Assembly (NCBI GenBank): GCA_963575745.1
Contig: CAUYUJ010000225.1
Span: 682,001-746,000 of the forward strand
Direction: 5' to 3'
DNA length: 64,000 nt
DNA from: Prorocentrum cordatum
Taxonomy: Eukaryota
Below the pieces are notes generated by a model that searched no databases, had not been told where the DNA came from, and worked only from the letters and a program-made list of their open reading frames with translations. Below, piece by piece: positions 23,077-58,259 of this stretch (position 1 is its first letter; every line of letters begins with the position of its first letter). The translations under genes were made by a program, and so were the position numbers.

Positions 23077-26000
23077 CGACGATGACGACGACGACGACGA
23101 CGACAACGACGGCCCACCACCGCACGCCCACAGGGGAAGACCCTACCACGCCACGCCCGCAGGGGGTGGCCCATCGCGCAGGGGGGGCGGGGGGCGATGG
23201 CATCAGCATGAGGGGGGGGGGCCGGGGCCCTGGATCATATATCGTTTAGCGGACGAACGTCCCAGCTAGAAGAGCAAAGTTCGTTTTCACTCACACGGAA
23301 TACATGCGCGAGTCGAACACTGCAATCGGCGGGGCCGGCAGAGAACATTGATACAACCTTCCACATCCCAGATATATGTGGCATCAAGATGGGACAAAGG
23401 AGCGGGTACTTTTCGGCGGAAGCATTTCAACAATATGCTAATGCACGCAGGGTTTACCATATTGGCGATGGCCACAGACCGAGCTTCGGCAGAAACCAAA
23501 CTGGACAGGCTGCACGAATGCTGCAAGGAGCAGCGGGCGGGGACCGTCGACACCACATGGTCGCAGTGCGGGGCTCGATCCAAACGCAAGACATGCAGCC
23601 AGCTCGGATCCGACCGAAGACACGACGGCGCGCGACTGGATCTGAGACGTCGTCGGCAGGGTGGCGACGCGGATCGAGGCGCCCGATTCTGAATCCTGGC
23701 TGCCGCTGAGTCCGCCGCCGCCGCTCCCGCCGAGCTCCAGCGCCGCGGGAGCAGGGCGCCTGCCGCCGAGCAAGGGCGCCTCTCCACTGTCGCGTCGGTC
23801 GGCGCCCCGCGGATCTAAAATCCGCGGCGGCGGCCAGACGAGGGGCGGCGTCGGCGTCGCGGCCAGCGGCGCTTTCAGCGGAAAGACGCCCGATGCGCTC
23901 GTCTGCAAGATGAGCTAGCTCCTCGAGCCGCCGATCGACCTCCCCGCCGAAGGCGACGATCGGCTGCCCGGGGCTTGCGACGAGCAGCTGCGTCCGAGCC
24001 CGCTTCGCGCGGCGGGGCGGGCTCTGGCCAGCTCTGCCCCTTCCTCGCGCGCCTCTGCGAGAGGAGGTCGTCCGAGGCCCCCCGCGACGGAGGGGGCCCA
24101 GCGCCGGCTCGGCCTCCGGGCCGACGTCCGAGGCAGCGCGACGGAACATGCCGCGCGCCTCGTCGGGCGCGATAGTCCACAAACTGTCAGTCGAGGCCTC
24201 CCCGTGCACCGGCGCTTCCAGCCACATTACGAGGCCGTCGACGACCGCGCTCTCGTCGGACTCGCCCGTTTCGCCAGTTCTCGATTGAGGAAGGCGTCGT
24301 TGATGACGAGCGCCCAATGGCCCCGACCCCCCGCCCCGTCGGGGCGAGGGCGCGCGACGCGACGCTGCCTGCCGGGGGGAAGCAGGCCTCGCGCGGCCTC
24401 GGGCAAGCGTCGAGCATCAGCCTGATAAGGACGGCCACGGCGAAGAAGTGCCTGGTCACCAGAACCCCGACGACCGCGGCCATCGCCGCTCGCGGGGGGG
24501 GGGGGGGGGGCGCATCTGCGGCGGCGCCAGCTTCTGCTACCAAGTCAAGGCACGAGCCGCGACATGGCGGGGCGCGGTGCTTCAGCGCCGCCATCAGCGC
24601 CGCCCCCGCGGCGCCAAGGTTCACGCCGTGGGCAACAAAGACGACGTCGCACTCCGCCGCAGTCGAGGAGCCCAGGGAACATCGAGCCCCTTCCGAACTC
24701 AAAGTGCTCCTTGTTGAAACGTCTTGACTGTAGGAGGCCGAAACCATTTTTTTCGGATGCCTGGGGCTGAGGGCGATCGGCCACCGGCGGGCGCGCCCGG
24801 GCGCGTCGGCGCTCAGCGGCGGCCCCGCCGCGCGGCGCCGGCGGCCGTGCAGCCCAGGAGCAGCGCGCAGGCGCAGCAGAGGCCGAGGCCGAGGATCGGA
24901 GGCGCAGAAGCGGACACCAACGCCAGTACTGTCCTGCTCCTCCTCCTCCTCCTCCTCCTCCTCCTCCTCCTCCTCTACCGCCTCGTCATCCTCATCATCA
25001 TCAGCAACAGCAGCATCATCACCATCACCATCACCATTACGATCACCATCACCATCATCGTTATCATCATCCCCACCATCATCATCATCACCATCATACT
25101 CATCACCACCACCGTCACCGCCACCGCCACCGCCGCAGCCACCACCACCACCATCACCATCATCGTCATCATTGTCATCATCTTCACAATCTTCACCATC
25201 GTCATCATCATCGCAATCACCATCATCATGATCACCATCATGATCATCATCATCACCACCATCACCATCACCTTCACCATAATCACCATCTTCATCAAAA
25301 CCACCATCATCACCATCATCTTCACAATCACCATCATCAGCATCATCATCAATCACCTCATCACCTCAGAAGTCACCTTGATCTTCATATTCATCTCCAT
25401 CGCCATCAACATCAATCACCAGCACCATGATCATCATCACAATCACCATCACCATCATCATCATCACCATCATCATCACCACCATCACTATCACCATCAC
25501 CATTATGATCACCGACGATCATCATCAGCCGCATCATGATCATCATCATCATCATGATCATCACCATCATCATCATAGGCAGCAGCAGGACCATCACCAT
25601 CACCATCACCATCATCATCATCGTCATCATCTTCATCAGCAGCATCATCAAAATCACCATCATCGTCATCATTGTCATCATCGTCAGCATCATCACCATC
25701 ATCATCATCACCATCATCATCACCACCATCAACACCATCACCACCACCACCGTCACCACCACAGCCGCGCCCACCATCAGCATCATCATCATCAGCATCG
25801 TCATCTTCACCAGCGTCATCACCATCACCATCACATACCATCTCCATCATTATCATCACCATCATGATTGGCTTCATCGCCATCGTCATCATCATCATCA
25901 TCAGCATCAACTTCAACATAATCATCACCATCATCATCTTCATCTTCACCTTCATCATCACGATCACCACCGTCACCACCATCATCATATTCTTTTTCCT

Positions 26001-26582: not shown

Positions 26583-29500
26583 TACCACCACCATCAACAT
26601 CATCGTCATCATCATCCCTGACATCACCATCACCATCACCACTGTCACCACCACCACGGCCACCATCATCATCATTACCATCGCCATCAACATCGTCTTC
26701 ACCATCGTGATCATCATTACCAACATCGCCATCACCATCACCATCACCATCACCATCGTCATCATCTCCATCATCATCACCATCACGATCACCATCACCG
26801 TCATCATTATCACCATCACCATCATCATCACCAGTACCATCATCATCACAATCATCACCATCTACATTATCATCACCATCATCACCATCGTCATCATCAT
26901 CTTCATCTTCATCTTCATCATCATCATCATCATCATCATTACCACCATCATCATCACCATCACCATCACCGTCACAATCATCATCATCACCATCATCATC
27001 AGCATCACCATTACCACCATCAGCATCACCATCACCATTAAGAGTATCATCATGATATTCATCGTAATAATCATGATAATCATAATCATAATCACCATCA
27101 CCTTCACCTCGTCATCACCGTCATCATCTTCATCTTGATTGTCATCATCATCACCATGACCATTACCACCACCACAGCATCATCCCCACAATCATAATCA
27201 CCATCATTATCAACAGCATCATCATCATCATCATCACTACCACCGTCGCCACAGCCACCGCCACCATCATCATCAGTATCTTCACCATCATCACCATCAC
27301 AATCCCCATCACCAACACCATCATCATCATCATCATCATCATCATCACCATCACCATCACCATCATCATCATCACCATCATCATCATTATCATCATCACC
27401 ACCGTCACCACCATCATCGCCACCTCCACCGTCACGACAACCAGCGTCACAACCACGACCGCCATCATCACCATCACCATCACCATCACCACCATCATCA
27501 TCATCATCATCATCATCATCTTCATCACCCCGCCTTCCCTCCCTCCCTCCCTCCCTCCCTCCCCCTCCTCCCCTCCCCCCCTCCCTCCCTTCATCTACCC
27601 CTTTACCTCCCCGCCGCTCGAGGGGGCATGGGAAGCACTGCGGCGTGGCCATGGGCCCCCTCGGCGTCGCGGCCAGCGGCGCTTTCAGCGGAAAGACGCC
27701 CGATGCGCTCGTCTGCAAGATGAGCTAGCTCCTCGAGCCGCCGATCGACCTCCCCGCCGAAGGCGACGATCGGCTGCCCGGGGCTTGCGACGAGCAGCTG
27801 CGTCCGAGCCCGCTTCGCGCGGCGGGGCGGGCTCTGGCCAGCTCTGCCCCTTCCTCGCGCGCCTCTGCGAGAGGAGGTCGTCCGAGGCCCCCCGCGACGG
27901 AGGGGGCCCAGCGCCGGCTCGGCCTCCGGGCCGACGTCCGAGGCAGCGCGACGGAACATGCCGCGCGCCTCGTCGGGCGCGATAGTCCACAAACTGTCAG
28001 TCGAGGCCTCCCCGTGCACCGGCGCTTCCAGCCACATTACGAGGCCGTCGACGACCGCGCTCTCGTCGGACTCGCCCGTTTCGCCAGTTCTCGATTGAGG
28101 AAGGCGTCGTTGATGACGAGCGCCCAATGGCCCCGACCCCCCGCCCCGTCGGGGCGAGGGCGCGCGACGCGACGCTGCCTGCCGGGGGGAAGCAGGCCTC
28201 GCGCGGCCTCGGGCAAGCGTCGAGCATCAGCCTGATAAGGACGGCCACGGCGAAGAAGTGCCTGGTCACCAGAACCCCGACGACCGCGGCCATCGCCGCT
28301 CGCGGGGGGGGGGGGGGGGGCGCATCTGCGGCGGCGCCAGCTTCTGCTACCAAGTCAAGGCACGAGCCGCGACATGGCGGGGCGCGGTGCTTCAGCGCCG
28401 CCATCAGCGCCGCCCCCGCGGCGCCAAGGTTCACGCCGTGGGCAACAAAGACGACGTCGCACTCCGCCGCAGTCGAGAAGCCCCTGCTCGCCTAGCGGCG
28501 CCACTCTTAGCACTCTTTGGCAGCCCCCAGTACTTGGCCGCCGTCGCGTCGGAGATAGCCGCCGTCTCGAGCGCCGACGGAGCTCTGCTCATGGGCGAGC
28601 TGGGGGCAGGGCGAATCCTCGCCCCCCTGTTCGGCCAGCGTCGCAGCTCGCTGCCGTCGAGACTTGGGGAACAACCCGCCTGTTTGGCCGAGCGAAACGG
28701 GCCGACGACGGCGCGTCCGAGGCATTGCGTTCGCCGGGGATCCAGCGCGCTGCGCTCGAATCCTGGCGGCCGCCGATAACGCGCAGAGCTTTCGCGTTCG
28801 CTGAAGGATTCTGCGAGCGCCTGAACGACCCTTGCCCGCGGCAGGTGCCAGAGCCAAATTGTCCGCAGCGAAGAGGACGCGTCGGCGGCGAAGCCGGCCA
28901 GACCGAGACGCGCGTCGCATCGCACGATGTCTAAGCCGAGCCTCGAATGATGCGAAGAATGGGTCGCCGCCCAGACGTCGCTCGCAGCGATCGCGCCGGA
29001 GAGCTCGTCGAAGCCGCTTCGTGAACCTTCCATTCTGGGTTGAAGATGGGCGGCATGTCGTTCTCCATCGTGGCTGGGCTCGGAGCCTCCCAAACCGACC
29101 CTCTTGGGTTGAAAACGGCCAACGTGTCCTGCGCCATCGGGCCGCCGCGGTCGAAGTTGATCGGGCGCTTCGTCGCAGTCGATCGCCTCGCCGCCGAAGT
29201 CGCTGTCGAAGTAAACTGATCCCCGAGCCGCGATGGGACTTCGCGCAACAAGGGCCCGACGATGATGACATGGGCCCAGTTGGGTGCCCAGGAAGCACCA
29301 GATGCCGGCGGCCCCCCCATGCACTTTTGTTATCTTGTGCTGAGGGGCGCCGCCCAAGACCGCGTTGGGCAAAATACCGAAAGCGCGAGCCCAAGCGTGC
29401 GCCGCGCCCGAGTCGCGGCGGCGCCGCCGCTAAGATTGCCTGCCGGCCGAGTCGCTGTCTCCCGGTCGAAGGTCTCGCAGCGGGCCCCGACTCCGACGTG

Positions 29501-36644: not shown

Positions 36645-38056
36645 CGTCCAGTCGGCCACGCCCGGCAGGCAGAAGCTCGCGCAGGCGTCCCTCCACGGGC
36701 GCGCGACCCCGCCTCGCGGCGGGGCCCGCGGCCGCCGCAGGCCGCGGACCTCGCGGGCCAGCTCCGCCGCCGCGACCAGGGACGCCACCTGCGCGCCCAC
36801 GAGGAGGAGGAGGAGGAGGCGGAGTAGGTGGAGGGGGAGGAGGAGGAGGAGGAGGAGGAGGAGGAGGAGGAGGAGGAGGAGGAGGAGGAGGAGGAGGAGG
36901 AGGAGGAGGAGGAGGAGGAGGAGGGCGTCCCCCCTGGCGGATCACTGCCGCCGCCTTCCGCCGGCCTTCCGCCGGCGGAGCCGACCTCGCTGCGATTCGG
37001 CCGCGCTCCGCCGGCCTTCCGCCGCCCCGCCGCCACCGGCATTCAAGAAGAAAACCCCTCGGACGTGCTACGTCCAGAAGCAATCAGGCCAAAGGTTTGT
37101 CTCCATATTCAGCCCCTGGGGGCCCCTACTGGACCTCGGGCCCGTCCAGAGAGAGGCTCAGGACGAAAAACCAGCCCTGGGAAAGAGTGGGGGCTTCTGG
37201 GGAGCCCGCGCCGAAAAAAACAGGACATTGCATGTCTGGGACTGCACGACCACAAACTGTCGGAAGTCCGCGTGGATGATTTGAATCAGCGCTGCTGGAC
37301 CAGGGACGCCACCTGCGCGACAACAGGGAGGTACGGTCGGGAACGTTTGCTTAGCGTGTCGCCGCGGAGGCCCCGGCGGCGACGTCGGCAATGCACCGAC
37401 GCCGCCAGCGTGGAGAGAATTGGGCCCCACATCGAGCCGCATCGCCGATGCATCGGCGATTCGGCGCGATTCCCGACCCCATCTGCTCCGACCCCATCTA
37501 GGAGGCCCACGGACGGGAACTTCTAGACTGCATGACCACAAACGTTCGGAGGTGCCTTCGGATTTCTTGAATCGGCGCTGCTGGACCCGCCTGGCGGCGC
37601 CTCGGGCGCCGCCCCTGGCGCGTTCCACGCGCCAGGGAGCAGTGTCCAGCGCGTATCCAAGAAATCCGTGTGACCTCCGAAAATTGATGGTTATGCCGTC
37701 TTTCCCTCTCTCGCAAGAAGAAACGATCTGACCCCCCCTCCCAGAAGCAGGGCGGGCCAACGGGCGGCTGGCTTCGTGAGCTCATAGCCTCGCCAGCGCC
37801 TGCGTACTCTGCGCCCCAGCTCTCCAAGCCGTTCTGCTCTTCCCGGTCACTGCTGCCGCGGCCAGCGCGGCGGCATGGTGCGAGAGCCAAGCAGAGGGAC
37901 GGACTGGGGAGGACGTGCGCGCACGCACGCAGCAGCTAGGCAGGGCCGGCCGAGCTCCTCCGAAAGTCCCTCTGCAGCTGCCCGAACCGCACCTCGGTCC
38001 AACGAGGTCAGCCGCAGGCACAACTGAGGGGGAACGTTAGGGGGGGGGCCGGCTCA

Positions 38057-38088
<32 letters not shown>

Positions 38089-40064
38089 GAGGAGGAGGAG
38101 GAGGAGGAGGAGGAGGAGGAGGAGGAGGAGGAGGAGGAGGAGGAGGAGGAGGAGGAGGAGGAGGAGGAGGAGGGGGAGGAGGAGGAGGAGGAGGGAGGAG
38201 GAGGAGGAGGAGGAGGAGGGGAGGGGGGGGGGGAGGAGGAGAGGAGGGAGAGGAGGAGGAGGAGGAGGAGGAGGAGGAGGAGGAGGAGGAGGAGGAGGCG
38301 CGCGGACCGCACGCCACCAGCAAGAGGCAAGCCTCGAGCTGGTGGTCCGGTTCGATCAGCGCCCAGCGCACGCCAAGGCGTGGGCCGAGCGGGCGGGCCG
38401 CCCCGCCTGCCTGGCCACGTCGTGCACCTGCTTCCCCGACACCGTGGGCGCCAGGTAGAGGCACACGTATGCGGCGGGGGAGGGGACGACGGGCGACAGA
38501 CTACAAGGGCGGCCCAGGAAAAACAAAACGAGTTTAATCAGACGACCCAGAACTCGCTCCATCGGGAACGGGTTCGGGAGCACTGGCCGCTTCCAGCGGC
38601 CTTGCACTATCAGCACTGTGGGGCTCCTCCGCACGGTCAACTCCGCACTCGGCAGCCCCAAGAATCGGAGGAGGAGGAGGAGGAGGAGGAGGAGGGGGGG
38701 AAGCATCGAGCTGGAATCGGCGATGCGCCGCCGACAGAGGTCGGCGAATCCGGCGGCGGGCCCCCCCACAGCGCATATCCGCACCTTCCCGGGCGGGGGG
38801 GGGCCCATGGGGCCCCCCCATCGACGGCACGGGCGACCGGGAGTCGCTGCGCGTCCCCTCCTCCCCCTCCTCCTCCTCCTCCCCCTCCTCCTCCCCCTCC
38901 TCCTCCTCCTCCTCCTCCTCCTCCTCCTCCTCCTCCTCCTCCTCGGAGCGTGGGCGGCCCCCCCGGCCTGACGTTGCCCCTTTGAAAAAAGGGCTCCAGC
39001 CAGGATCCGACCTGCCCCGCGGGCGCGCAGGAGAGCGGAGGAGGGGGGGAGGCACGGCGGGCGGCCGCCTGCGCCGCCAGGCTCAGCTCCCAGATCCGCT
39101 GGTACGGCAGGCCTCCCGAGAGCATGGCGTTGCCCACGGCGCCGGCGGCGCAGTTGGAGCACAGCAGCACGGCCATCGCCCAGTGGACGTGCTTCTGGAA
39201 GTCGCTGCCCAGGACCGCACTGACCTCGAAGAGCACAGCGTACTGCGGGCCGGTGTGCGCCGCCGTCGACGCCGCCACCGTCAGCTGCGTGACCTGCAGC
39301 GCAGGTATCCAGACGCTCAAGCGTGTCACCGCGACGGTGAAGCAGCCACACGCGGAGCCCAGCAGCAGCACGTTGGCACTCCCTGCGCACTCGGCCAGCG
39401 CGCCGATCACGAGGAGCAGCGGTAGCCGGGCATAGATCCAGAGGCTGAAGAGGTCGTGGTCCACCTGCTCGGGGTGCTTGCACAAACCAAGAAAAGACGT
39501 GGCGGGGGGAGGAGGGGCCACTTGCACCAGGGGTGGCCGGCTCCACACTACAGTCAACCCGCATAGGAAGGATGGGTAACCTTCCCAACGGTACCCTTGC
39601 ATCCTTGCCCTTTCGGCCCATCCTTAGCGACGTTCGCTTGCCAGCTTCATTCGAAAAAACGCCAACATGGCCCACCAGGGCCCTTGCATCCTTACCGTGC
39701 ATCCTTATGATACGAATTGACTGTACTGAGACCCCGCGTGGCCTGGCGGCCTTGTTCACGTGGCCCTGCACAGCGAGGAGAAGGAGGAGGAGGAGGAGGA
39801 GGAGGAGGAGGAGGAGGAGGAGGAGGAGGAGGAGGAGGGGGAGGAGGAGGAGGAGGGGGAGGAGGAGGAGGAGGAGGAGGAGGAGGAGGAGGAGGAGGAG
39901 GAGGAGAAGGAGGAGGAGGAGGAGGAGGAGGGGGAGGGTCCGCCTGCTCCTTGGTCAGCCCCTTCGACGCCAGGAACTGGGTCAGGAACGGCTCCGAGGG
40001 CAGGAACTGGGAGAGGGCGACGAAGGCCAGCAGCAGCCCGAGGGCCCTGCGGGCGCGCGGCTCC
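4897..40064 (-). CDS. Spliced gene for an SLC19/reduced folate carrier-thiamine transporter-like membrane protein (start and final exons unresolved)
   Basis: Nine exons join in phase: 40064-39944, 39464-39069, 36788-36649, 21906-21867, 20681-20519, 10162-10109, 9314-9148, 7092-7027, 5031-4897. The peptide has SLC19-like motifs in order: FLPSEPFLTQFLASKGLTKEQ|VDHDLFSLWIYA, WELSLAAQ, DW|TVWA, VVTFWQLL..LNGYVTAASYLLGG, FYCAFVAYQLVF..ATQQVG, CVAL|VINITQALASCVQ. All acceptors are AG|G and donors are GC/GA/GT. Confidence 0.85.
5425..5925. repeat. Tandem repeat, ~152-bp unit, ~3.3 copies
   Basis: ctcgcc..gagacatcctcacaa..ctctgaacgca recurs at ~5450, 5601, 5752 and 5908. Confidence 0.85.
6787..6943. 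mobile_element. TTAA-flanked MITE
   Basis: TTAA-GTCGGGCCTGTCC...GGACAGGCCCGAC-TTAA; second copy at 55212-55365. Confidence 0.85.
7027..7092 (-). CDS. Transporter exon
   Basis: CCAG|AGPLGLAPAPAGAPPQRQCVAL|GC; 22 codons, phase 0. Confidence 0.6.
7340..8425 (-). mobile_element. Probable degraded 3' fragment of a non-LTR element
   Basis: Lower-GC island between (GAG)n tracts; CLACGALGGDTLQHMLE resembles the post-RT CxxC..D..H zinc finger. Confidence 0.35.
8760..9120. repeat. (GAG)n tract, representative of many such tracts across the window
   Basis: Also at 1329-1385, 4706-4840, 7200-7330, 12617-12976, 38065-38297, 39775-39935, 40570-40757 and elsewhere. Confidence 0.95.
9148..9314 (-). CDS. 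Transporter exon
   Basis: PLEFYCAFVAYQLVFRLSAAAATQQVGAEICQ...AWLQ|GC. Confidence 0.8.
9543..9770. mobile_element. Fold-back MITE family with AGGCCT ends (copies 6292-6477, 40089-40299; partial 6695-6780, 37390-37508, 38700-38750)
   Basis: Long TIRs aggcctcccagat..ggtccgag..ggggtcggag and an internal perfect palindrome CATCGGCGATGCATCGCCGATG (9601-9622). Confidence 0.8.
10109..10162 (-). CDS. Transporter exon
   Basis: ACAG|GC-FSVAASGLLLCGMGVAE-G|GC; phase 1 at both ends. Confidence 0.75.
13072..17860 (-). pseudogene. LINE ORF2 broken by several frameshifts
   Basis: Domains are spread over consecutive ORF fragments: 17129-19285 (3' part), 16738-17037, 16260-16622, 15489-16232, 14425-15774, 14313-14771, 13607-14251, 13072-13854. 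Confidence 0.88.
17841..18965 (-). CDS. LINE ORF1: N-terminal CxxxxC..CxxC zinc finger and coiled coil (374 aa)
   Basis: Intact ORF MAKQQKYILCNRRGCKGWTW..HCDQCGG followed by a Q/E/K/L-rich heptad region, directly upstream of the APE domain. Confidence 0.8.
   Translation of the reverse strand: MAKQQKYILCNRRGCKGWTWSSTGAKHCDQCGGRFRSQQYAPPGGARGGAANNPGAGGPGSEPMPPPSQPDKPGRWRGRDRSRGPSHPPGLRRPGSITFADGEGQQPQEEDIVALAQAQVTFWKKWKPNGEEYNATLGKLKQARASVLATKSLDLQAQSLSDQLETQRQKYITQTTELKKLVETILEVSGRHSKLVEEAKSTQQDIQSLESQYNMAKQAAMQAATKDEDLLSTLQGVLAARMPPGSRAPPDLCSKVSELASYFDDLTAQHAQTQSPSDFPAVGQRPEDESGVDAGSAASQQTNPAELVPTPTDTELDDGKMDESESLVRAASAFQSAASGMAEIQGESGPEVKRAKAAAATAAAGASGPTTSRS
19129..19137 (-). other. Dinoflagellate spliced-leader 3' relic (TGGCTCAAG) at the LINE 5' terminus
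   Basis: The minus strand reads (CCT)n-TGGCTCAAG-TCCTT; the 9-mer equals the 3' end of the dinoSL DCCGTAGCCATTTTGGCTCAAG. Confidence 0.6.
19350..20040. repeat. (GT)n/(GCGT)n/(GGT)n microsatellite complex
   Basis: Direct inspection. Confidence 0.95.
20519..20681 (-). CDS. Transporter exon
   Basis: VVTFWQLLLRAKAPEAEHLNGYVTAASYLLGGLGLLLSARAPVMSDRGARRWLI-G|GC. Confidence 0.8.
21867..21906 (-). CDS. Transporter 40-nt exon
   Basis: AAG|G-TVWAVTMHTAHVL|GT; completes the Trp codon begun in the 36649 exon. Confidence 0.75.
23290..23760 (-). pseudogene. Degenerate C5-cytosine methyltransferase domain of DIRS copy 1
   Basis: ALELGGSGGGGLS (motif I-like), DDVSDPVARRRVFGRIRAGCMSCVWI, and ILLKCFRRKVPA..TYIW are colinear with the clearer copy at 59530-60215. 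Confidence 0.55.
24985..27527 (+). repeat. Degenerate (CAT/CAC)n trinucleotide tract
   Basis: Direct inspection; also present at 1-620. Confidence 0.95.
26910..27664 (+). repeat. Apparently exact duplicate of positions 1-755
   Basis: Constant offset of 26909; ORF translations 254-685 and 27163-27594 are identical. Confidence 0.95.
27661..28477 (+). repeat. Apparently exact 817-bp duplicate of 23851-24667
   Basis: Constant offset of 3810; identical ORF translations; the copies diverge after AGTCGAG. Confidence 0.95.
30965..31285. repeat. Tandem repeat, 73-bp unit, ~4.3 copies
   Basis: ccaactgta recurs at 31023, 31096, 31169 and 31242. Confidence 0.9.
35027..36643 (+). repeat. Degenerate (GAT)n trinucleotide tract abutting a splice donor
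   Basis: Direct inspection. Confidence 0.95.
36649..36788 (-). CDS. Transporter exon (central loop)
   Basis: VASLVAAAELAREV...WRDACASFCLPGVAD-TG|GA; phase 2 matches the next exon at 21906. Confidence 0.75.
37528..37697. mobile_element. Diverged hairpin relative of the 42942 MITE (half copy also at 37240-37300)
   Basis: Shares cggaggt..gatt..atcggcgctg and its inverse ccagcgc..aaatccg..gacctccga. Confidence 0.55.
39069..39464 (-). CDS. Transporter exon (132 codons, several TM helices)
   Basis: VDHDLFSLWIYARLPLLLVIGALAE...WELSLAAQ; GAGCAG|GTGGAC acceptor and GCGCAG|GC donor. Confidence 0.85.
39551..39723. mobile_element. TA-flanked Tc1/mariner-type MITE in a transporter intron
   Basis: TA-CAGTCAA..AAGGATG...CATCCTT..TTGACTG-TA. 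Confidence 0.65.
39944..40064 (-). CDS. Transporter exon, TM1 and PSEPFL signature
   Basis: EPRARRALGLLLAFVALSQFLPSEPFLTQFLASKGLTKEQ; CCAG|G acceptor and CAG|GC donor. Confidence 0.85.
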
Positions 40065-42651
40065 CTGGCGGGGGTGCGCCCACTCCGGAGGTCTCCAACA
40101 TGGGGTCCGAGCAGATGCGGTCGGATGCTCTCGCCGCATCGCCGACGCATCGCCGATGCATCGCTGGCGATGTCGGCGATGCATCGGCTCCGTCGGCGTG
40201 GGGGGGAAACTGGGCTCCACATCGAGCGGCATCGACGATGCATCGGCGGTGCGGCACGATCCTTCGACCTTATCTACTCCGAGCCTATCTGGGAGGCCTA
40301 GGCGCTCTCTGCACGCTTGACGCGCTCCCCTCCCCCCCTCCCCCTCAACCCCGACGTGCACCGCAAGGACACATCCACACTTACAGCTTCTGGACTCTCG
40401 CCCTGGGACCCTGCGGCCGACGTGGACGCCTCCCCGCCAGAAGAGGCAGGCGGACATGCACATCCACCACTCCTCGAGGCCCCAGGGCGCGACCCCGCAG
40501 CGGTGGAAGTGGAGAGGTTCTGGCGGTGAAGAACCGGGACCACACCAGCGAGTGCCAGCGACATGGGAGCAGGAGGAGAAGGGGAAGGGGGAGGAGGAGG
40601 AGGAGGAGGAGGAGGAGGAGGAGGAGGAGGAGGAGGAGGAGGAGGAGGAGGCGGAGAAGGAGGAGGAGGAGGAGGAGGCGGAGGGGGAGGAGGAGGAGGA
40701 GGAGGGGGAGGAGGAGGAGGAGGAGGAGGAGGAGGAGGAGGAGGAGGAGGAGGAGGAGTCCCACCTGCCGCGATGCTGCTCATCGGCAGAGCCCGCCAGG
40801 ACATCCATTGCCCGCTTGCCGCTCTGCGGCTGCCCAGGGGCCCCTCGGGCATGAAGGTGCCGCCGCCGGCCCCGCTGCGCTCATGTCGGCGTGCCAACGC
40901 CCCCCTCGGGGCCGCTCGACCAGCAGTGGCTGCGGAGGGGCAGAGCGCAAAGCGAGTGGGCACACGGTGGAGCGACGATCAGAAAGGGGCCTTGCGCGAG
41001 ATGGCATGGCGACCTTACATGACCTCACGCGGCGGCGAGCGCGGGCCGCCAGCGCGGCACGCCGCACTGGAAAAAAAGGGCGCTCACGCGCGGCGTTGCG
41101 AGGACAGCTTCGCGCCAATCTCGGGACGACCCCGTCTTCTTCCGTCGCCCACTTGTTCCTCAGCGGGCGCGCGCGCGAGGTCGCGACGGACAGCCTGCCG
41201 CTGCCGCGGCCGCTGCCGACGAGACCAGTCCAATAAGCCTCACGCAAGCACATGGTAGCCCCGCCAGGCGCGGCAGGGAGGCCAGTGCACCATGGGCTGC
41301 GCCATTGGCTGCGTCGTGAGCTGCGCTGTAAGTCGCGCCGCAGGTTGCGCCACAGGCGGCGCCACGCGGCCGCTCCACAGGTTGCGCCGCACGGCCGAAT
41401 GACGAGCAAGCCCACTCTGTCACCCTGCGCCACATGTCGCGCCACAGATTGTGCTGCCCCACGCATCAGGAGAGGGTCCGCTCTGTCACCTTGCGCCAAA
41501 GGTTGCGACCATCGGTTGCACTTTTGCCTGCATCGCCACCCCGAGTCGCAGGTTGGTCCTCTCTGCCATCCTGCGACGCAGGTTGCGCCGCATGACCCAA
41601 TCACGAGCTGGGCCGCAATCACCGTGCACCACGGGTTGCGCCGTAGGTTGCACCGCCACCCCACGAAATGGTCCGCTCTGTTCGAGGCGAAGCTTCCTTC
41701 ACGCCTTGCACAGCTCCCCCGCCTGCGCGCCATCACCATCGAAAAGCTCACCTGCGCGCATCATGACCGAACCCCCTTTCCCGTCGCCTTATCCTGGCAC
41801 GACCAATGAAATCAGAACCCAGAGGCCCCCAAATGAGCCCCAGAAAAGAGACTCCAAGAAGCCCCGCATAGGCATCGTGACAAAGATGTAACGATATAGC
41901 CACGCCACACTAGAGCATCGCAGCGATATTTCCCAAACAGCATCCATCTGGTTCTACGGAGCCTGTCCAGAATAGGTCGGCGAAACCATCATGCATGCAT
42001 TTCGGTGCTGAGATGGCACGGTGGCGGGGCTTGCCGCAAGCATGTGGAACTAGCGTCGGTTAGTGCGTCTTTGTTGCTTGCAAAGAGGCTAGCGTGCCCT
42101 ACATGGAACCATTGTGGCGGTACGTAGATCGATATATACCGCACCTATGATAAGGAATATCATTATCATAACAACGCATGGCATCGGACTCGATGTGTTA
42201 TATACTCAGCCGTACGACCGTCAAACTTGCTGTTGAGTATCAATTGTGCCCTTGGTCGCATCACTGCTTCTGAAGCGCAGTCGACGTTCGAGTCACACAG
42301 TTTCGCCAACATGCCAGGGAGCAGAGGTCGCATTTGCAGCATCGCATCAGCCTTGATGTATCCAGAGACCTTGGCCTCATATGTGATGGGAGCGTGGCGT
42401 TAAGCCTGTTGGATGTCCAGCACGCGTTGAATATATTGCACATCCGCACTGGAATTTAGAACGGTGGGCCGAAGATCGAACAAACATTTCAAGGCACTCA
42501 TTCTTACTCGAGTGGCGGGAGAAGTGGAGAGAGAAGGAAAGATGAGCAGGATGGGCTGGAGGCAAATTCGGCGACATGCACTCGAGAAATCAGGAGCAAG
42601 CAGCATCAGTTGTTCCGCTGCGTCCTTGCGGGTGTTTGTTGGCGCGCGCAC

Positions 42652-45507
42652 CTGGTCTTGCAAGGCAAGACTCGCCTCCACGTCCACTACCAGGTGGATT
42701 CGATCCAGCTTCGAGCGATTCTCCCCCTCGTGCACCTGACGGACGTTCGTGAAGTACAGTGTCCCCTCCTCCAAGCAGTAGGGCCTGCCGCGGATCTTGA
42801 ACTCCACCTCCCTGCTCGTCGCGATCGGAACGTGGAGCCGCACCACGCTGGGATCCTGGAAGTAGTCCCTGTGCGGTGCGATGACGCCCCCCGGCCTGAG
42901 ACGCATGAGGCGGACGCGGAGCACTCGACGCGCGCCGATCTTAGGGGAGTGAACAATGACACACACAAACAAAAACTCGGAGGTCCGCGCGGATTGCTGA
43001 GATCGGCGCTGGACCCCCCTCCCTGCCGCGCGAAGCGCGCCAGGGGCGGCGCCGGAGGCGCCGCCAGGAGGCCCCAGCGCCGATCCGAGAAATCCGCGCG
43101 GACCTCCGAGTTGTTATGTTTGTGTAATTTTTCGCTCCCCTAGATCTCCCGCACGATCTGCCGGATGTAGGGGCAGAACTTCTCCATCAACGGCGTGTCG
43201 GCGTACTCTCCGCCCGTCTGGACGCCCGTGTTGGTGCTGCCGGCGTCCCCCATGGCACCCCCGATGGAGCGCAGCGGGATGGAGCCCCAGCCGCGGGTGC
43301 TGGCCGCCTCCTGCTGGCACGCAGGAAGCGGGGCCCTCGGGGGCCCCGGGTCCTGGACGACAGGGCGCTTCCCCCCCCACCGACCAGACGTAGCTGGGGG
43401 AGCTGTGGTCCTTATACCCCCCTGGGGAGCCCATCGCATCGACGATCTCTCGAGAGGGGTGTCGAAATCGATGGGTCCCCCAGGGGGGTAAGGACCACAG
43501 CTCCCCCAGTTGTGGCTCCCCTGCCCCCAGGGCCAGCTGCCATCCCGAGCCGGCTCTGGGGCAGCCCCGGGGCCCCAGGGCCCACCCCGAGCTCCGACGT
43601 CGTGATCTTGGCGCCACGTCGACCCCCCCACGAGGTCTGGCCCTCTTCCCCGGGACCGGTGTTATACCTCCCGGTTCGCTTCACTGACGGCCCCGGTGCC
43701 CAGCGAGGCCCCCCGGAGGCCGGAGGCCGCCGAGCACCTCCGGGCGTGCTCTCTTGCGCGACGGCGAGGAGGAGTGGGGGCAGGGACGAAGTGTGGGCAG
43801 GAGACGATGGCGCCGAGAGGACGACGCCGAGCCGACGAGACCGACGGCGGGAAGCAGCGGGGGGCAGGGCTGCCAAGCACGGCGAGGAGCCTCGGGGCCC
43901 CGCCGCCCTCGGGGCCCGCGCTCGCTTTTCTGGCGACGTCCTGGGTGGCCGAGAGGACTGCGGTCTTGTCGAGGAAGGCGTGCTCTCGCTCCACGGCCTC
44001 CAGCTCGCTCCTCTCGGGGGGTGCCGAAACGATGCGGTGACGGGCCGCGCGGCGGGCTCGGACTCCCCATGCACCTCACCGCACGGTCCGCCACCGCACG
44101 GTTCTGGCACCTCGGAGGCCCCCGTCGCCCGAGACATCCTCGGAGACCGACCCGGGTCCCAGAACTGTGCGGTCACCCCGATTCACCGCTGGCTCACCAC
44201 ACGGTGCGGCCACCGCACCGTTTGGAGATCCCCGATCCTCAGACGTGCGACTTCGAGGCCGCTCCGGAGGGCCACGACGTCCTGGCAGTCTCGGTCCAAG
44301 AGGCACCTGAGGGGCAACGTTAGAGGACCGACTTGGTGGGGAGGGGAAACATCGAGCTGGAATGGGCGATAGATCGCCGATAGATCGGCGATAGGCCCCC
44401 GATAGCGAAGGCGAGCGTTCCTGGGCGGGGCGGGCTATCGGGCCCCCATCGGCGGTTGGGCATCAATGCATCCCTCCTGCGCCTATCCCTGACGTTGCCC
44501 CGTGGCTTTCGGGTCGTAGCTCGGCTCTCTGGCGGCCGTTCGGGATGTTCTGGGCTCCCCAGAACGAGGCGCAGCTGCTGGAAAGCACCCCGAGGCTGGA
44601 AAGCCGCCGAGAACCAACGAAAACGCCAGACCATCTCGAACCACGAAACCGAAACGTTCCCCCCCCCCGAGATTGCGCCATTGTTAGCCAAATAAAAACT
44701 AGTGTTATTATCAGTGCCCTTAGTAGTTTCTATCGTGAATCTTGCTATTGCTACGATCCTAATCATTTTCGTAGTAGTCGTCGTAATAGTATTAGTATTA
44801 TTGCATTACTATTATTATGACTATTATTACTATATTAGTATTGTTATCACTATTGTTCTTATTACATAGCATGTCCTGCAACAGTCGTCACCCAAGGGGG
44901 GGAGGGGTCTGGCCCCCCAGGGAGCGGCAACGCGCGGGCAGGGCAGGGCGCGCCGGGGCGGGGGGTGCGCTGCGCTCGCCGGAGCATGCGCGCGAGCATC
45001 CTCATGGGAGGGGCAACGACTAGGGGGGCTAGGCGCGGCTAGGCATGGGGGGGGATGAATCCACCGGGAATCGGCGATGCATCGCCGATAGATCGGCGAC
45101 AGGCCCCCGATGGTGAATCCGCACCCTTCCTGTGCAGGCTGGGGCTATCGGGCCCCTGGCCGGCGATCAGTGGGCGGTTGCGTGTCGAGGCATCTCCCCC
45201 TTATGCCTATCCCCCCCCCATCGTTATGCCCCCGACCATCCTGGGAGGATGTCCAAGCCCGCCCCCCCGCACGTACGATCGTTACTGTTACACGGGGAGG
45301 GAAAGGGGGGGGGGCCCGGGAGGTGGCTTGCCTGGGCAACGACCATCACGCGCCAAGGTATTAACAAAAAAACAGAACCTCCCCGGGCCTATCTCCAACT
45401 CGCGCTGCCCCCGAGCACCGCAGGTCTTCCCCCCTCTCGTTGAAGGCGGCCGCCTCCCTCCGCAGCAGCTCCGCGTGTGTCGCGGCACCGCAGAGCGCGG
45501 GGGCGGC
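42652..45507 (-). CDS. Spliced Fe(II)/2OG dioxygenase, aspartyl/asparaginyl beta-hydroxylase (proline hydroxylase)-like domain; ends unresolved
   Basis: Exons 45507-45419, 44306-44238, 44010-43941, 43310-43146, 42939-42652 join in phase: ..LEVARL|RSELEAV..GWGSIPLRSIGG..DTPLMEKFCPYIRQIVRE|IGARRVLRVRLMRLRPGGVIAPHRD..RLHVPI..VHEGENRSKLDRIHLVVD. The HxD...H iron triad and the RxH motif are present. Confidence 0.85.
42942..43142. mobile_element. 201-bp MITE forming the intron between two hydroxylase exons
   Basis: ~70-bp imperfect TIRs (TAGGGGAG...CTCCCCTA) with a 5-bp direct repeat GATCT at 42937-42941 and 43143-43147. Confidence 0.88.
43394..43509. repeat. Near-perfect intronic inverted repeat
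   Basis: ctgggggagctgtggtcctta..cccccctgggg..cccatcg pairs with cgatggg..ccccagggggg-taaggaccacagctcccccag. Confidence 0.85.
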
Positions 45508-46082
45508 CTGGCCGGGCGCCAGGGCGAGGAACGCTGGAGATGGAGCTGCTTTCTCTGTCGGTGATGGCCTCCTCCTCCTCCTCCTCCTCCTCCTCCTCCT
45601 CCTCCTCCTCCTCCTCCTCCTCCTCCTCCGGCGGGGTGGTGCGGGGGTGCCGGCCGATGGCCCAACCTTGACGGTGCACCCCCCGCCCGAAGGCAGGAGG
45701 GAGCAGGATGAGGACGGTGATGACGACGAGACGGACTAGGACTGCGAGGAGGAGGAGGAGGAGGAAGAGGAGGAGGAGGAGGAGGAGGAGGAGGAGGAGG
45801 AGGAGGAGGAGAAGGGAGGGGAAAGAGCAGAAGGAGGAGGAGGTAGCAGCTAAGGAGGGGGAGGAGGAGGGGGCTTCCCTCCGGGCAGCCCCACGTATGC
45901 CCGCGCGCACTGGTTCTGCTCAGCCCGCCGTCGGACCTGCGCCACCGACGGGGCCAGGTTGTCCGGGAGGGAGGGGGCGGACGGGCCCCACAGCCCGAAT
46001 GTATCGCCAGACCCTACAAAAAACAGTCTCCTGGTAGTTCGCTCGCCCACCCGGCGCACGGCGAGGAGATCTCCACCCGCAC

Positions 46083-56100: not shown

Positions 56101-58259
56101 CCGCCCCATTTTCGGCGCACCCCGTCAGCATGTCTATGCGCATCTGGCGGTCCTGGCACACAGTCGCGCCACGCGTCAGCAGAGGGCACGTACCTTCGCC
56201 AGGGTCATCTTTCACGACGCGAGGAGCGATGGGGAGCCGGAGAGGGTCGGCTACACGCAAGAGTGACCCTGGGTAAGAGTGACTTTTGGTGCGCGGCTTT
56301 TTGGGGGCCGCGGGGAGACCAAACCTGGGCGCGCAAGCCGCTGCTACCGCCTCGTTTTCAGCCATCTGAGGGCCCATCTGTGCCCGCACCAAAGGTCCCT
56401 CCGGCGAAAGGTCACTCTTACGTCTAGTCGAGAGGGGGGGGTTCCTTTCGTCAGCGACTGGCCCATCCCGAACATCACGCGCCTCCGGAACGCGAGCTTG
56501 AAGAGCTCCAGCAGGAGGAGGCCCTCCGCTGCCGGCGCGTGGGGGGTGGGACGGGCCGGTCCGCCCAGCGCCCCCCGCCGCGACCAGGTCGAGGTCGAGG
56601 TCTTTCTGGACCTCCTCCTCCTCCTCCTCCTCCTCCTCCTCCTCCCCCTCCTCCTCCTCCTCCTCCTCCTCCTCCTCCTCCTCTCTCCTCCCTCCTTCTT
56701 CTCTTCCTCTCCTCCTCCCTCCTCCTCCTCCCCCTCCTCCTCCTCCTCCTCCTCCTCCTCCTACTTCCCCTCCCCCTCCGCCTCGCCTCCTCCTCCTCCT
56801 CATCTTCCACGGCCTCCGACTCCGCCCGCTTCGTCGCCGACGTCGTGGTCCTCTTCAGGGTCGGCGGCTTCGGCCGCCAGGCCCTCGCAACCGGAGTCAT
56901 CGGTTGCTGTTCGGCCTGCTCCGGAGGTCTCTTTGCACCTCCAGAGGCCTCTGGCCTCCGGGGACCTCTGAAGGCCCCGGAAAGGTTCCAGTTCCAGTGG
57001 CTCTTTCTGGCTCAGGCTTTCGCGCCAGGCTTCGTGTCTTCGCCGGCCTTCGCCAACTGTCGCTTGCTTCCGGATACCTTCGGAAGCCTTCGGACTCAAT
57101 CGTGTTCCTTCCTTGCCCCCCAAATTTCCAGAGATTCCCTCAACCTCGCCTGTCTCATCCCCTTCCCCTTCCAGTCACATCGTGTACACCCCTTATGTTT
57201 GTAACTCTTCGTTGTCTTCATTTTTGCGATCGTCATTATACTCCTTCTCCCCAGATTCATCTTCACAATGTTCCATTCCTGTCGACCTCCCTCATCCTCC
57301 ACCTCATTCCTCCTGTAGAAAGCGCGACATCGCTTCGCTGGCGCCGTTTACACATAAACGAAGCAGCTTGGTATTACCGCCTCCCTCCGCCCCACCCTAC
57401 GATTTAGATGGTCTGGGAACTGGCATCGTACCGACCCCCCCTGGGACCGGCGTTCCATCCCCAGCTGTTGTTGTTGACAGTACTGGGGCCCCAATGATGG
57501 CGCTCAGGAGCCGAAAACTTCCACATAGTATCCGTCGTGATGTTTTGACGACGCGAGGACGTCGGGCTGTCGAGTGGTAACTCAAGTCTCTGACCACCGT
57601 TTGGGACGATTCCGGCACCCCGAGAACACTCCTCGATGAGGCGCCGCTGCTGGAAGAAACACGCCGAGGTCACAGAGCCTACACGCGCCACCGAGAGCGT
57701 CCGCAAAGGACGCCAGGTCGCGAGGATGTCTGGGATCGCATGGTCATCTGGGAAAATATCATGGCACCCGCCATGATATCCATCCCCCCCTAGTCATCAC
57801 CCCCCTCTTTTCCGCCCCCGACATGGGAGTGGGAGGGGGAGGGGGCAGCGAGGAGGCCCAGGATCCCCGAGGGGACCCCCAGGCTCGCCCCTGGGTAAGA
57901 GTGACCTTTGGTGCGCGGCTTTTTGGGGGCCGCGGGGAGACCAAACCTGGGCGCGCAAGCCGCTGCTACCGCCTCGTTTTCAGCCATCTGAGGGCCCATC
58001 TGTGCCCGCACCAAAGGTCCCTCCGGCGAAAGGTCACTCTTACGTCTAGTCGAGGCATCGCATGAAAGGGGGAGGGGAAGGGTGCAGCGAGGAGGCCCGG
58101 GGTCCCCGAGAGGACCCCCAAAAGCTCGCCCCTGGCGCGCCTCCGTGTTGGCGGGCAGGTAGCCCATGGGTCTCCGACCGTCGTGGTAGACGCCGTCGGG
58201 CCCCCGGCCGGCGGGGAAGTCGAACTCGACGACGACGGTGTAGGGCGCCCCTCGGCATC
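53114..58259 (-). CDS. Spliced Deltex C-terminal (DTC) domain protein, probably a RING-DTC E3 ligase whose upstream exons were not located
   Basis: Exons 58259-58141, 56523-56445, 53156-53114 join in phase: GCRGAPYTVVVEFDFPAG..GYLPANTE|GLLLLELFKLAFRRRVMFGMGQSLTK|GNRRPTNNVHIKTSR. This fits the DTC pattern AYLP..EG..LL..AF..R..F..G.S.T.G...HxKT. Confidence 0.8.
55212..55365. mobile_element. TTAA-flanked MITE, second copy
   Basis: Same TIRs and TTAA flanks, with an interior homologous to 6787-6943. Confidence 0.85.
56247..56431. mobile_element. MITE family with AAGAGTGACC/GGTCACTCTT arms (other copies ~1165-1322, 47284-47447, 57890-58053)
   Basis: TCGGCTACACGCAAGAGTGACC...GGTCACTCTTACGTCTAGTCGA flanked by a GAGGG direct repeat; 57890-58053 is nearly identical. 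Confidence 0.75.

What the first reader, a model, noticed from the sequence alone, without database searches (positions are those of the whole stretch)
42937..43147. An intron that is a MITE: candidate Introner with a non-canonical donor in the hydroxylase gene
Seen: the whole gap between two hydroxylase exons is a 201-bp element with ~70-bp TIRs plus one copy of a 5-bp TSD (AGATC on the coding strand). Unspliced, it puts a TAG straight after IVREI and shifts the frame, yet the downstream exon keeps every catalytic residue. The TSD supplies the AG acceptor. Perfect restoration (..VRE|IGAR..) needs an AT-AG intron of 206 nt or a GA-AA intron. The dinoflagellate-typical GA-AG option (209 nt) stays in frame but drops one Glu. 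It is the only resolved acceptor here that is not followed by G. Known: TIR transposons that create introns (Introners) exist in dinoflagellates. Inference: this is a recent intron gain, possibly helped by the hairpin bringing the splice sites together.
Basis: partly seen in the sequence, partly recalled or inferred. Interest (0 to 1): 0.8.

Follow-up and report, generated by a model that had tools for sequence, protein, structure and literature searches.

The report
Transposon intron removed without standard splice sites
A small hairpin-forming transposon sits inside a hydroxylase gene of a dinoflagellate-like alga, and RNA assemblies lack it exactly, although its borders fit none of the splice signals known for these organisms.

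Summary
On the minus strand a 201-bp element (43142-42942) with about 75-nt inverted ends lies between two AGATC copies. It splits an Asp/Asn beta-hydroxylase-family gene at a point where 5 of 5 homologues run on without a gap.

New evidence: in 4 of 4 public runs laid, one on record as poly(A) RNA, a single contig matches the exons with no mismatch. It joins 42936 to 43143, skipping 206 nt, which is the element plus one AGATC copy. It also skips two neighbouring introns.

The 5-nt repeat allows six registers for the cut. None gives GT, GC or GA paired with AG; the only one ending in AG is AT-AG. The 209-nt GA-AG option was not seen.

Both RNA-verified neighbour introns are GA-AG followed by G, and each has a 5-nt repeat over its borders. 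Related element copies exist, one with a different 5-bp duplication, GGGTA.

Best reading: an Introner-type intron gain with non-canonical ends. The mechanism is not settled: a tolerant spliceosome or hairpin-guided excision. An element-free DNA copy is not excluded, because no DNA run was available.

The parts
43143..43147 (-). Upstream copy of the 5-bp target-site duplication AGATC. It forms part of codons GAG ATC (Glu-Ile) at the end of the upstream exon.
   Evidence: Sequence. The 5-nt ambiguity of the RNA joint ('both = 5'). Registers.
42942..43142 (-). 201-bp non-autonomous TIR element (MITE), TAGGGGAG...CTCCCCTA. No ORF of its own.
   Evidence: Family copies.
43066..43142 (-). 5' inverted arm, about 77 nt.
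   Evidence: the repeat finder I1/I3. Pair table.
42942..43020 (-). 3' inverted arm, about 79 nt. It is T/C-rich towards the 3' end (TTTTTGTTTGTGTGTGTCATTGTTCACTCCCCTA).
43021..43065 (-). G+C-rich central part. It is the best conserved stretch among family copies and is matched by many other RNA contigs.
   Evidence: Alignment A1. Depth bins 43010-43151.
42937..42941 (-). Downstream copy of the duplication AGATC. It supplies the only possible AG acceptor.
42937..43142 (-). The 206 nt absent from RNA contigs. The borders may be shifted together by up to 5 nt towards higher coordinates. In the AT-AG register the interval is 42940-43145.
   Evidence: Joint 42936->43143 in 4 of 4 runs. Registers.
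43148..43310 (-). Upstream exon (EAASTRGW...CPYIRQIVR, then EI from the duplication copy).
   Evidence: tblastn. RNA contig pieces 43143-43308 with 0 mismatches. Alignment A2.
42550..42936 (-). Downstream exon (GARRVLRVRLMRLRPGGVIAPHRD...). It carries the Pfam PF05118 match. RNA contigs reach 42550-42628.
   Evidence: Pfam E = 2.2e-12, 47.5 bits against a cut-off of 22.6..
43311..43940 (-). Neighbour intron, 630 nt, GA-AG followed by G, with the 5-nt border repeat CAGGA. It contains a nested 116-bp palindrome at 43394-43509.
44011..44237 (-). Neighbour intron, 227 nt, GA-AG followed by G, with the 5-nt border repeat GAGGA. Its ends pair with each other.
37546..37680 (.). Diverged second copy of the same element family (79% identity over 136 nt).

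Best explanation
A 201-bp miniature TIR transposon, from a family that makes 5-bp target-site duplications, inserted into a formerly continuous exon. The gene belongs to the Asp/Asn beta-hydroxylase family, in a G+C-rich genome whose other introns look dinoflagellate (GA-AG followed by G).

The pre-mRNA loses exactly the element plus one duplication copy (206 nt). This restores the ancestral ...VREIGARRV... reading frame, so the insertion behaves as an Introner-type new intron.

As in known dinoflagellate Introner classes whose duplication supplies both splice sites (AG|GH...AG|GH), the cut most likely falls after the AG of each AGATC copy. Here the next base is A, not G, so the intron would be AU...AG. 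I think the spliceosome does this. It may be helped by the about 75-bp stem, which in the predicted fold runs through both GAUC copies and puts the two sites opposite each other.

Shown: the insertion anatomy, the family, the collinearity with homologues, and exact absence of the 206 nt from RNA contigs. Inferred: removal at the RNA level, the register, the enzyme and the role of the hairpin.
For: Anatomy: element, arms and AGATC copies. Fold z = -17.3. GAUC:GAUC pairs have probability above 0.99, and the flanking exon pairs about 0.94.

Mobile family: a 79% copy in the window. Of 6 metagenome loci, 2 carry extended similarity: L006 at 82% over 182 nt, flanked by GGGTA on both sides, and a truncated copy in L004.

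Family in RNA: 46, 203, 72 and 25 contigs were laid on the stretch in the four runs. Summed depth over the element core is 132-14,422, against 8-44 for the exons.

Insertion into a continuous exon: 5 of 5 homologues have residues on both sides of the junction columns with no gap (EI|GA, EI|EA, AI|KA, DL|SC).

RNA: in 4 of 4 runs from 4 studies (X11 on record as poly(A) RNA), one contig with 0 mismatches joins 42936->43143. The same contig joins across the 630- and 227-nt introns.

All 19 runs that hold at least half of the words have shares of 0.50-0.63. I computed about 0.62 for the two exons alone.

Context: 2 of 2 RNA-verified neighbour introns are GA-AG|G with 5-nt border repeats. This is the pattern described for Polarella Introner classes with a 5-nt NAGGH duplication (preprint 10.1101/2020.10.14.339549, parts 1-2 read).
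Against: None of the 6 registers has G at intron position +1 together with an AG acceptor. In well-studied spliceosomes (recalled knowledge) A at +1 combined with AG blocks the second step.

In the predicted fold both sites are buried in a very stable helix. That should hinder recognition of the sites as single strands.

The evidence is from assembled contigs, which drop rare forms and cannot show retention or minor isoforms. Three of the four runs have no library type on record.

No DNA run holding the locus was available (the top share is 0.63). An element-free DNA copy therefore cannot be excluded.

Only one such intron was examined. No other exonic copy of this family was found.
Confidence: 0.58

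Rival explanations
1. Hairpin-guided excision independent of the spliceosome. The paired inverted arms are recognised as a structure. An endonuclease cuts at the base of the stem and an RtcB-type ligase joins the exons, as in SOS splicing of animals or the unexplained removal of euglenid nonconventional introns.
For: No register has spliceosomal ends.

The stem is extreme (z = -17.3). It continues through both duplication copies into the exon flanks.

In the AG..TA register both cuts fall at unpaired bases: the GGA loop at 43149-43147 and the bulged A at 42942. These flank a 5-bp helix, which resembles a bulge-helix-bulge. The bulge-helix-bulge motif is recalled, not tested.

SOS splicing is triggered by pairing of inverted terminal repeats and rarely uses GU-AG (PMC12779559, abstract and passages).
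Against: SOS splicing cuts at several sites in or near the repeats and leaves indels, and only a subset of products is in frame. Here 4 of 4 contigs carry one and the same exact junction, although contigs would hide minor forms.

Many contigs in the RNA runs, including the poly(A) run X11, carry pieces of family copies at high summed depth. The hairpin alone therefore does not ensure removal.

The neighbouring TIR-like intron uses ordinary GA-AG.

The required factors are known only from animals.
Confidence: 0.17
2. Nothing is removed from RNA. The transcripts come from DNA that lacks the element: another strain or allele with an empty site, an identical paralogue, or a processed retrocopy made before the insertion. 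The copy in the window would be a freshly disrupted pseudogene.
For: No DNA run holding the locus was served, so the empty site is untested.

The exons are identical to the RNA (0 mismatches), as expected for a very recent insertion.

The unspliced reading gives TAG directly after Ile.

From recalled knowledge, dinoflagellates have many gene duplicates and retrocopies.
Against: The same contigs also lack two ordinary introns and match this locus perfectly in 4 runs of 4 studies under 3 organism labels.

None of the 19 holder runs from 9 studies has a word share above the exon-only value. So no run retains the element, although at least one study probably used the assembly's strain (inference).

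No second copy of the gene lies in the window.

All four resolved introns of this gene have the same insertion-like anatomy, with a 4-5-nt border repeat. Becoming an intron appears to be the usual fate of such insertions here.
Confidence: 0.13
3. Artefact of cDNA synthesis. The mRNA keeps the element, but reverse transcriptase jumps across the base of the stable hairpin between the two AGATC copies. This would produce the same 206-nt deletion.
For: A strong hairpin flanked by direct repeats is the classic setting for template switching (recalled knowledge). The SOS-splicing authors ran in-vitro-made RNA as a control in their long-read assays. The artefact predicts exactly the observed junction.
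Against: Fragmented RNA libraries would still give reads over the exon-element borders, and the assembly graph would then branch at the junction. Instead one contig runs through it in 4 of 4 runs. In X11 and X9 the bin next to the downstream exon (42939-43009) has depth 0.

A 5-nt repeat is short for a jump that would have to occur in nearly every molecule.
Confidence: 0.05

Closest known systems
Dinoflagellate Introners (Polarella glacialis classes 12-14, Symbiodinium). Roy et al., preprint 10.1101/2020.10.14.339549, parts 1-2 read; the Curr Biol 2023 version is known only from reference lists.
   Same: A non-autonomous TIR element inserted in an exon. The target-site duplication (4-5 nt) supplies one or both splice sites. 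The removed length equals the element plus one duplication copy. Neighbouring introns in this gene fit the NAGGH pattern (GAGGA, CAGGA).
   Different: Described classes use GT/GC/GA donors and AG followed by GH. Here the duplication is AGATC, so the donor position +1 and the base after the acceptor are A. Those studies started from annotated introns, so this type would not have been collected.
Non-canonical introner elements of Amoebophrya A25/A120 (Farhat et al. 2021, PMC7789003, abstract and passages read).
   Same: Introns without GT-AG, with 3-5-nt direct repeats over the borders and inverted repeats that form a hairpin joining the exon ends. They are repeated in the genome and MITE-like.
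   Different: Their inverted repeats are 8-20 nt, against about 75 nt here. In those parasites over 60% of introns are non-canonical and U1 snRNA was not found. Here the neighbouring introns are ordinary GA-AG, and the genome is G+C-rich like free-living core dinoflagellates.
MITE-derived non-canonical introns of the tunicate Fritillaria borealis (Henriet et al. 2019, seen only through the review PMC11282704, passages read).
   Same: TIR-bearing insertions at species-specific positions that are efficiently removed despite non-GT-AG ends. The removal is reported to be done by an adapted U2 spliceosome.
   Different: Most frequent ends there are AG-AC and AG-AT. The host is an animal, and there is no sequence relation.
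SOS splicing of DNA transposons from C. elegans and human mRNAs (Zhao et al. 2025, PMC12779559, abstract and passages read).
   Same: A DNA transposon in an exon is taken out of the mRNA. The trigger is pairing of the inverted terminal repeats, and the ends are mostly not GU-AG.
   Different: SOS excision sites are multiple and leave indels. Here there is one exact junction at the duplication. Its factors (AKAP17A, CAAP1, RTCB) could not be looked for without the genome.
Nonconventional introns of euglenids (through the review PMC11282704, passages read).
   Same: Non-canonical junctions, terminal pairing that brings the ends together, and duplication-like repeats at the borders. A MITE origin is suspected and the mechanism is unknown.
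   Different: The CAG/CTG pairing at +4..+6 / -8..-6 described there is absent here (TAG and CCC in the AT-AG register). The lineage is unrelated.

Membership tests
Introner (transposon-made spliceosomal intron) | Element belongs to a repeated, mobile family | tested here: met
   There is a 79% copy at 37546-37680. L006 is an 82% copy with a different 5-bp duplication, GGGTA, and L004 is truncated. Dozens to hundreds of RNA contigs match the core at 95% or more.
Introner (transposon-made spliceosomal intron) | Terminal inverted repeats and a target-site duplication at the intron borders | tested here: met
   The 5-nt ambiguity of the RNA joint.
Introner (transposon-made spliceosomal intron) | The insertion is absent from mature RNA, with the coding frame restored | tested here: met
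   A 206-nt skip in 4 of 4 runs. Collinear with 5 of 5 homologues. This is contig-level evidence without a matching DNA run.
Introner (transposon-made spliceosomal intron) | Splice sites of the host's type (GT/GC/GA donor, AG acceptor) supplied by the element or the duplication | tested here: not met
   The six registers are TA-TC, CT-AT, TC-GA, AT-AG, GA-AA and AG-TA.
Introner (transposon-made spliceosomal intron) | Other copies of the same family are introns in other genes | not testable with these tools
   No genome is held. L006 flanks show no convincing ORF across the site.
Introner (transposon-made spliceosomal intron) | Removal by the spliceosome (lariat, branch point) | not testable with these tools
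   This needs lariat or inhibitor data.
Amoebophrya-type non-canonical introner element | Non-GT-AG intron with a 3-5-nt direct repeat over the borders and inverted repeats at both intron ends | tested here: met
   The direct repeat is 5 nt. The inverted repeats reach the intron ends but are about 75 nt rather than 8-20 nt (definition from PMC7789003).
SOS splicing substrate | Heterogeneous excision sites in or near the repeats, leaving indels | tested here: inconclusive
   There is one exact junction in 4 of 4 contigs. Contigs cannot show minor isoforms.
U12-type (minor spliceosome) AT-AC/AT-AG intron | Conserved 5' motif ATATCC and a branch motif about 10-15 nt before the 3' end (consensus recalled, from no call) | tested here: not met
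   In the AT-AG register the intron starts ATCTAGGG and ends CCCCTAAG. The minor spliceosome is reported as missing in alveolates (PMC7789003 passage).
Asp/Asn beta-hydroxylase family (Pfam PF05118), the host gene | Profile match above Pfam's gathering score | tested here: met
   Downstream exon: 47.5 bits against a cut-off of 22.6, E = 2.2e-12, profile positions 75-155 of 157. The upstream exon alone gives no hit. All 5 homologues carry PF05118.

The most novel reading that the evidence does not exclude
Core dinoflagellates may have a way to take TIR transposons out of pre-mRNA that does not depend on the GH...AG splice motif. This could be a spliceosome guided by the hairpin and the exonic AG that tolerates A at +1. 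It could also be a structure-recognising cut-and-ligate pathway like SOS splicing. Either way, any exonic MITE insertion with paired ends would become a precise intron at once, with the borders set by the target-site duplication. That would help explain the very high intron gain of these genomes. It would also mean that gene models built with only GT/GC/GA donors systematically miss or distort such introns.
Probability: 0.22. Interest if true: 0.85.

Novelty: new member of a known kind. Interest (0 to 1): 0.58.

Why it matters
Introners are the best documented source of new introns, and dinoflagellates hold the record for intron gain. The described dinoflagellate Introners all end in GT/GC/GA...AG. 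Borders outside that set are described for the parasite Amoebophrya, for a tunicate and for euglenids.

This case appears to lie in a free-living-type, G+C-rich dinoflagellate genome and is backed by RNA assemblies. A MITE in a conserved exon is removed to the base although no register offers an accepted donor-acceptor pair.

It is a compact test object: 206 nt, a conserved enzyme gene, and ordinary introns next door as internal controls. It bears on how much of intron recognition in these organisms rests on sequence and how much on the transposon's own hairpin.

There is also a practical consequence. [quoted passage not shown] It would probably break this gene or choose the 209-nt option that drops a Glu.

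Tried and rejected
- Whole-genome search for other copies: no genome is held for this window.
- Dinoflagellate spliced-leader motif in the window: 0 matches at up to 3 mismatches. This is uninformative for genomic DNA.
- Earlier notes of this scan, by place, sequence and words: nothing.
- Metagenome scan with the 19-nt arm core: 6 loci. Four of them (L001, L002, L003, L005) match over 19-23 nt only and were dropped as chance hits.
- L006 flanks joined in memory: the longest ORF across the site is 107 codons without recognisable coding character. It was not pursued.
- Rfam over 42300-44400: no family reaches its gathering score and there is no hit on the focal element. Weak miRNA-precursor-like hits fall only on other hairpins.
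- ESM Atlas with homologue P0003: no usable hit.
- Paper search for dinoflagellate + AT-AG + intron: 0 papers. This shows only that these words do not co-occur in the held library.
- U12-type reading: rejected because the motifs do not fit (the consensus is recalled).
A minor isoform cannot be excluded.
- An old intron at this site: rejected, because the removed stretch is exactly the element plus one duplication copy, with no other intron sequence.
- A-to-I editing of the first A to make an IU donor: considered. The intron is gone from the RNA, so this is untestable here, and I know of no such enzyme in these organisms.
Full report
**1. What is in the sequence**

Read on the minus strand, the region is ...CAGATCGTGCGGG-AGATC-TAGGGGAGCGAAAAATTACACAAAC...GTGTGTGTCATTGTTCACTCCCCTA-AGATC-GGCGCGCGT....
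- The element runs from 43142 to 42942, 201 nt.
- The two AGATC copies are at 43147-43143 and 42941-42937.
- The repeat finder reports 60-nt arms at 83% complementarity with 45 nt between them.
- As RNA the segment folds to -169.5 kcal/mol. Shuffles average -94.3, z = -17.3, and 0 of 200 shuffles fold as well.
- The pair table has 86 pairs inside the element, so the arms are about 75-80 nt and reach the termini.
- The 19-nt arm core occurs 3 times in the window at up to 3 mismatches, against 0.02 expected.
- The window holds 29 inverted-repeat pairs of 25 nt or more within 400 nt. Hairpin elements are common here.

**2. The interrupted gene**

- The downstream block (42936 downwards) matches Pfam PF05118, Asp/Asn beta-hydroxylase. 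E = 2.2e-12, 47.5 bits against a cut-off of 22.6, profile positions 75-155 of 157.
- The 70-residue upstream block gives no Pfam hit by itself.
- A search of longer proteins with the downstream block gave 5 proteins with E <= 0.001 among 235 candidates. All are annotated PF05118, at 66-88% identity.
- tblastn of these five against the window lays out a minus-strand gene with exons near 47214-46990, 46082-46032, 45537-45415, 44311-44237, 44012-43941, 43313-43143 and 42940-42646.
- In the protein alignment the upstream exon ends ...CPYIRQIVREI and the downstream exon starts GARRVLRVRLM... in adjacent columns.
- All 5 homologues have residues on both sides with no gap: IVREIEAKRVL, IVAEIGAPRVL, VVNEIGAPRVL, IVAAIKAPRVM, VINDLSC-EVW. 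P0005 has a one-residue gap three columns later.
- The PH(R/K)D and NVR..H...NRS stretches conserved in the homologues are intact in the window. That these stretches hold the metal and 2-oxoglutarate ligands is recalled, not tested.
- Unspliced, ATC is followed at once by TAG, and 206 is not a multiple of three.

Removing the element plus one AGATC gives GGGAGATCGGC, which encodes ...R-E-I-G.... This is the homologues' sequence, so the gene itself confirms a 5-bp duplication. It rules out a TA duplication, which would leave a stop codon. It also rules out an older intron at this place, because nothing but element and duplication lies between the exons.

**3. A mobile family**

- A diverged copy lies at 37546-37680, 79% identity over 136 nt.
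- A scan of metagenome contigs with the arm core gave 6 loci.
  - Four match only 19-23 nt and were dropped.
  - L006 matches at 82% over 182 nt.
  - L004 carries a truncated copy.
- In L006 the 211-bp copy is flanked by GGGTA on both sides. This is a second, different 5-bp duplication, and the flanks show no convincing ORF.
- In the RNA runs 46, 203, 72 and 25 contigs were laid on the 2.1-kb stretch, and only one per run is the gene's transcript. Summed depth over 43010-43151 is 132-14,422, against 8-44 for the exons. One loose end shows another terminus, TAGGGGAAC... (table 7).

**4. RNA evidence**

- The look-up of sequencing runs listed 24 runs. Twenty hold part of the 771-nt query and 19 hold at least half of its words.
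- Shares are 0.50-0.63, and 3 runs are on record as RNA.
- I computed that the two exons alone account for about 0.62 of the words. No run comes near 1.0, so no DNA run with this locus was served.
- I laid 4 of the 24 runs on 42300-44400: X11 (poly(A) RNA on record) and X1, X6, X9 (type not on record). They represent 4 studies and 3 organism labels plus one metagenome label.
- In 4 of 4 runs one contig (814-1190 nt) lies on the exons with 0 other letters and has three joints:
  - 42936->43143, skipping 206;
  - 43308->43939, skipping 630;
  - 44008->44236, skipping 227.
- Each joint has a 5-nt ambiguity. Because the same contigs skip two ordinary introns, I take X1, X6 and X9 to be RNA too (inference).
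- No contig with a 209-nt skip was reported.
- In X11 and X9 the bin 42939-43009 next to the downstream exon has depth 0. In X1 and X6 it has some depth, which may come from family copies.

**5. The borders**

- The 5-nt repeat allows six registers: TA-TC, CT-AT, TC-GA, AT-AG, GA-AA and AG-TA.
- None pairs a GT/GC/GA donor with an AG acceptor.
- AT-AG (intron 43145-42940, phase 0) is the only register with AG.
- GA-AA keeps a dinoflagellate-type donor and a G after the acceptor, but ends in AA.
- The two neighbour introns each have a register GA-AG followed by G. Their border repeats are CAGGA (630 nt) and GAGGA (227 nt).
- The 227-nt intron also pairs end to end (z = -4.7 with mononucleotide shuffles).
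- The 1112-nt intron upstream is GT-AG followed by G with the repeat GGTGC. This is protein-guided, and the acceptor side agrees with the RNA piece that starts at 44307.
- The 497-nt intron, protein-guided only, would be GA-AG followed by C with the repeat CCAG.
- GA donors and G after the acceptor are the published signature of dinoflagellates.
- The window's G+C content is 0.52-0.71 per 2 kb. This resembles the 59.7% reported for one free-living species (PMC10666404). I did not establish the species.

**6. Geometry**

- In the fold the palindromic GAUC inside each AGAUC copy pairs with the other copy, at probabilities of 0.99 or more.
- The last A of the element (42942) bulges out.
- After a small loop (GGA 43149-43147 opposite GG 42936-42935), five exon bases pair: GUGCG with CGCGC, probability about 0.94.
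- All six candidate cut pairs therefore lie at the base of one long helix, a few base pairs apart. This is a prediction, not a measurement.

**7. Interpretation**

The insertion, its family and the exact absence from RNA assemblies are shown. The most economical reading is that this is one more Introner-type event in a gene that already carries several. The target happened to be AGATC instead of NAGGH, and the RNA is still cut after the AG of each copy.
- I give 0.58 to removal at the RNA level by the spliceosome with non-canonical ends.
- I give 0.17 to hairpin-guided, spliceosome-independent excision.
  - For: no spliceosomal register, and an extreme stem.
  - Against: one exact junction, where SOS splicing gives several with indels, and many family pieces in poly(A) RNA contigs.
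- I give 0.13 to an element-free DNA source (allele, paralogue, retrocopy).
- I give 0.05 to reverse-transcriptase jumping.
- The last two predict the same junction and can only be settled with same-strain DNA, raw reads and an in-vitro RNA control.

**8. Comparison with what is known**

- TIR Introners whose duplication supplies the splice sites are described in Polarella and Symbiodinium. All have GT/GC/GA donors (preprint, parts 1-2 read).
- Hairpin-forming introner elements with 3-5-nt border repeats and no fixed terminal dinucleotides are described in Amoebophrya (passages).
- MITE-derived non-canonical introns in Fritillaria and nonconventional introns in euglenids are summarised in a review (passages).
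- One genome paper reports introns enriched in introner elements in a high-G+C free-living dinoflagellate. [quoted passage not shown] Its supplements were not read and may bear on this.
- A search for dinoflagellate + AT-AG + intron found 0 papers.
- Two large Introner surveys mention non-canonical sites only in their methods.

I therefore file this as a new member of a known kind: a non-canonical MITE intron, in a lineage and context where only GH...AG Introners are described. It fails the splice-site criterion of a classical Introner and fits the descriptive definition of the Amoebophrya-type element.

**9. Limits**

- There is one locus, and the RNA evidence is contig-level.
- No genome and no DNA run were available.
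- The species is not established.
- Recency is not dated.
- The role of the hairpin is untested.

Noticed in passing
window 43394-43509: A 116-bp near-perfect palindrome (27-nt arms, 93% complementary) lies nested inside the 630-nt intron of the same gene. It gives only weak miRNA-precursor-like Rfam hits, far below the gathering scores.
   Followed up: partly
window 1157-1322 and 56247-56431: A second hairpin-element family (TCGGC...GTCGA, about 166-185 bp) is flanked by 5-bp direct repeats: GCCAG/GCCAG at the first site and GAGGG/GAGGG at the second. More than one MITE family here makes 5-bp duplications.
   Followed up: partly
window 44011-44237, 43311-43940, about 44307-45418, about 45534-46030: Every resolved intron of the hydroxylase gene carries a 4-5-nt direct repeat over its borders (GAGGA, CAGGA, GGTGC, CCAG). 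The 227-nt one pairs end to end. The whole gene looks built from Introner-type insertions. The 497-nt intron, modelled from proteins only, would be GA-AG followed by C.
   Followed up: partly
window 42400-42628: The RNA contigs of the gene end at 42550, 42567, 42571 and 42628, but the first in-frame stop is at 42402-42400. Homologues stop soon after ...LQDQVRAP. These are probably assembly breaks in a CT-rich stretch, but the true 3' end and stop codon are unresolved.
   Followed up: no
window 23998-24132 and 27808-27942: Weak matches to the element core recur with the same pattern 3810 bp apart. This suggests a tandem duplication of about 3.8 kb.
   Followed up: no
window 45600-45740 and 38667-38924: Long GGA/CCT-type simple repeats are present. 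One lies between exons of the hydroxylase gene.
   Followed up: no
L006 (metagenome contig), 150-380: A 211-bp copy of the focal family with the 5-bp duplication GGGTA lies in a 60% G+C environmental contig without an evident coding context.
   Followed up: partly
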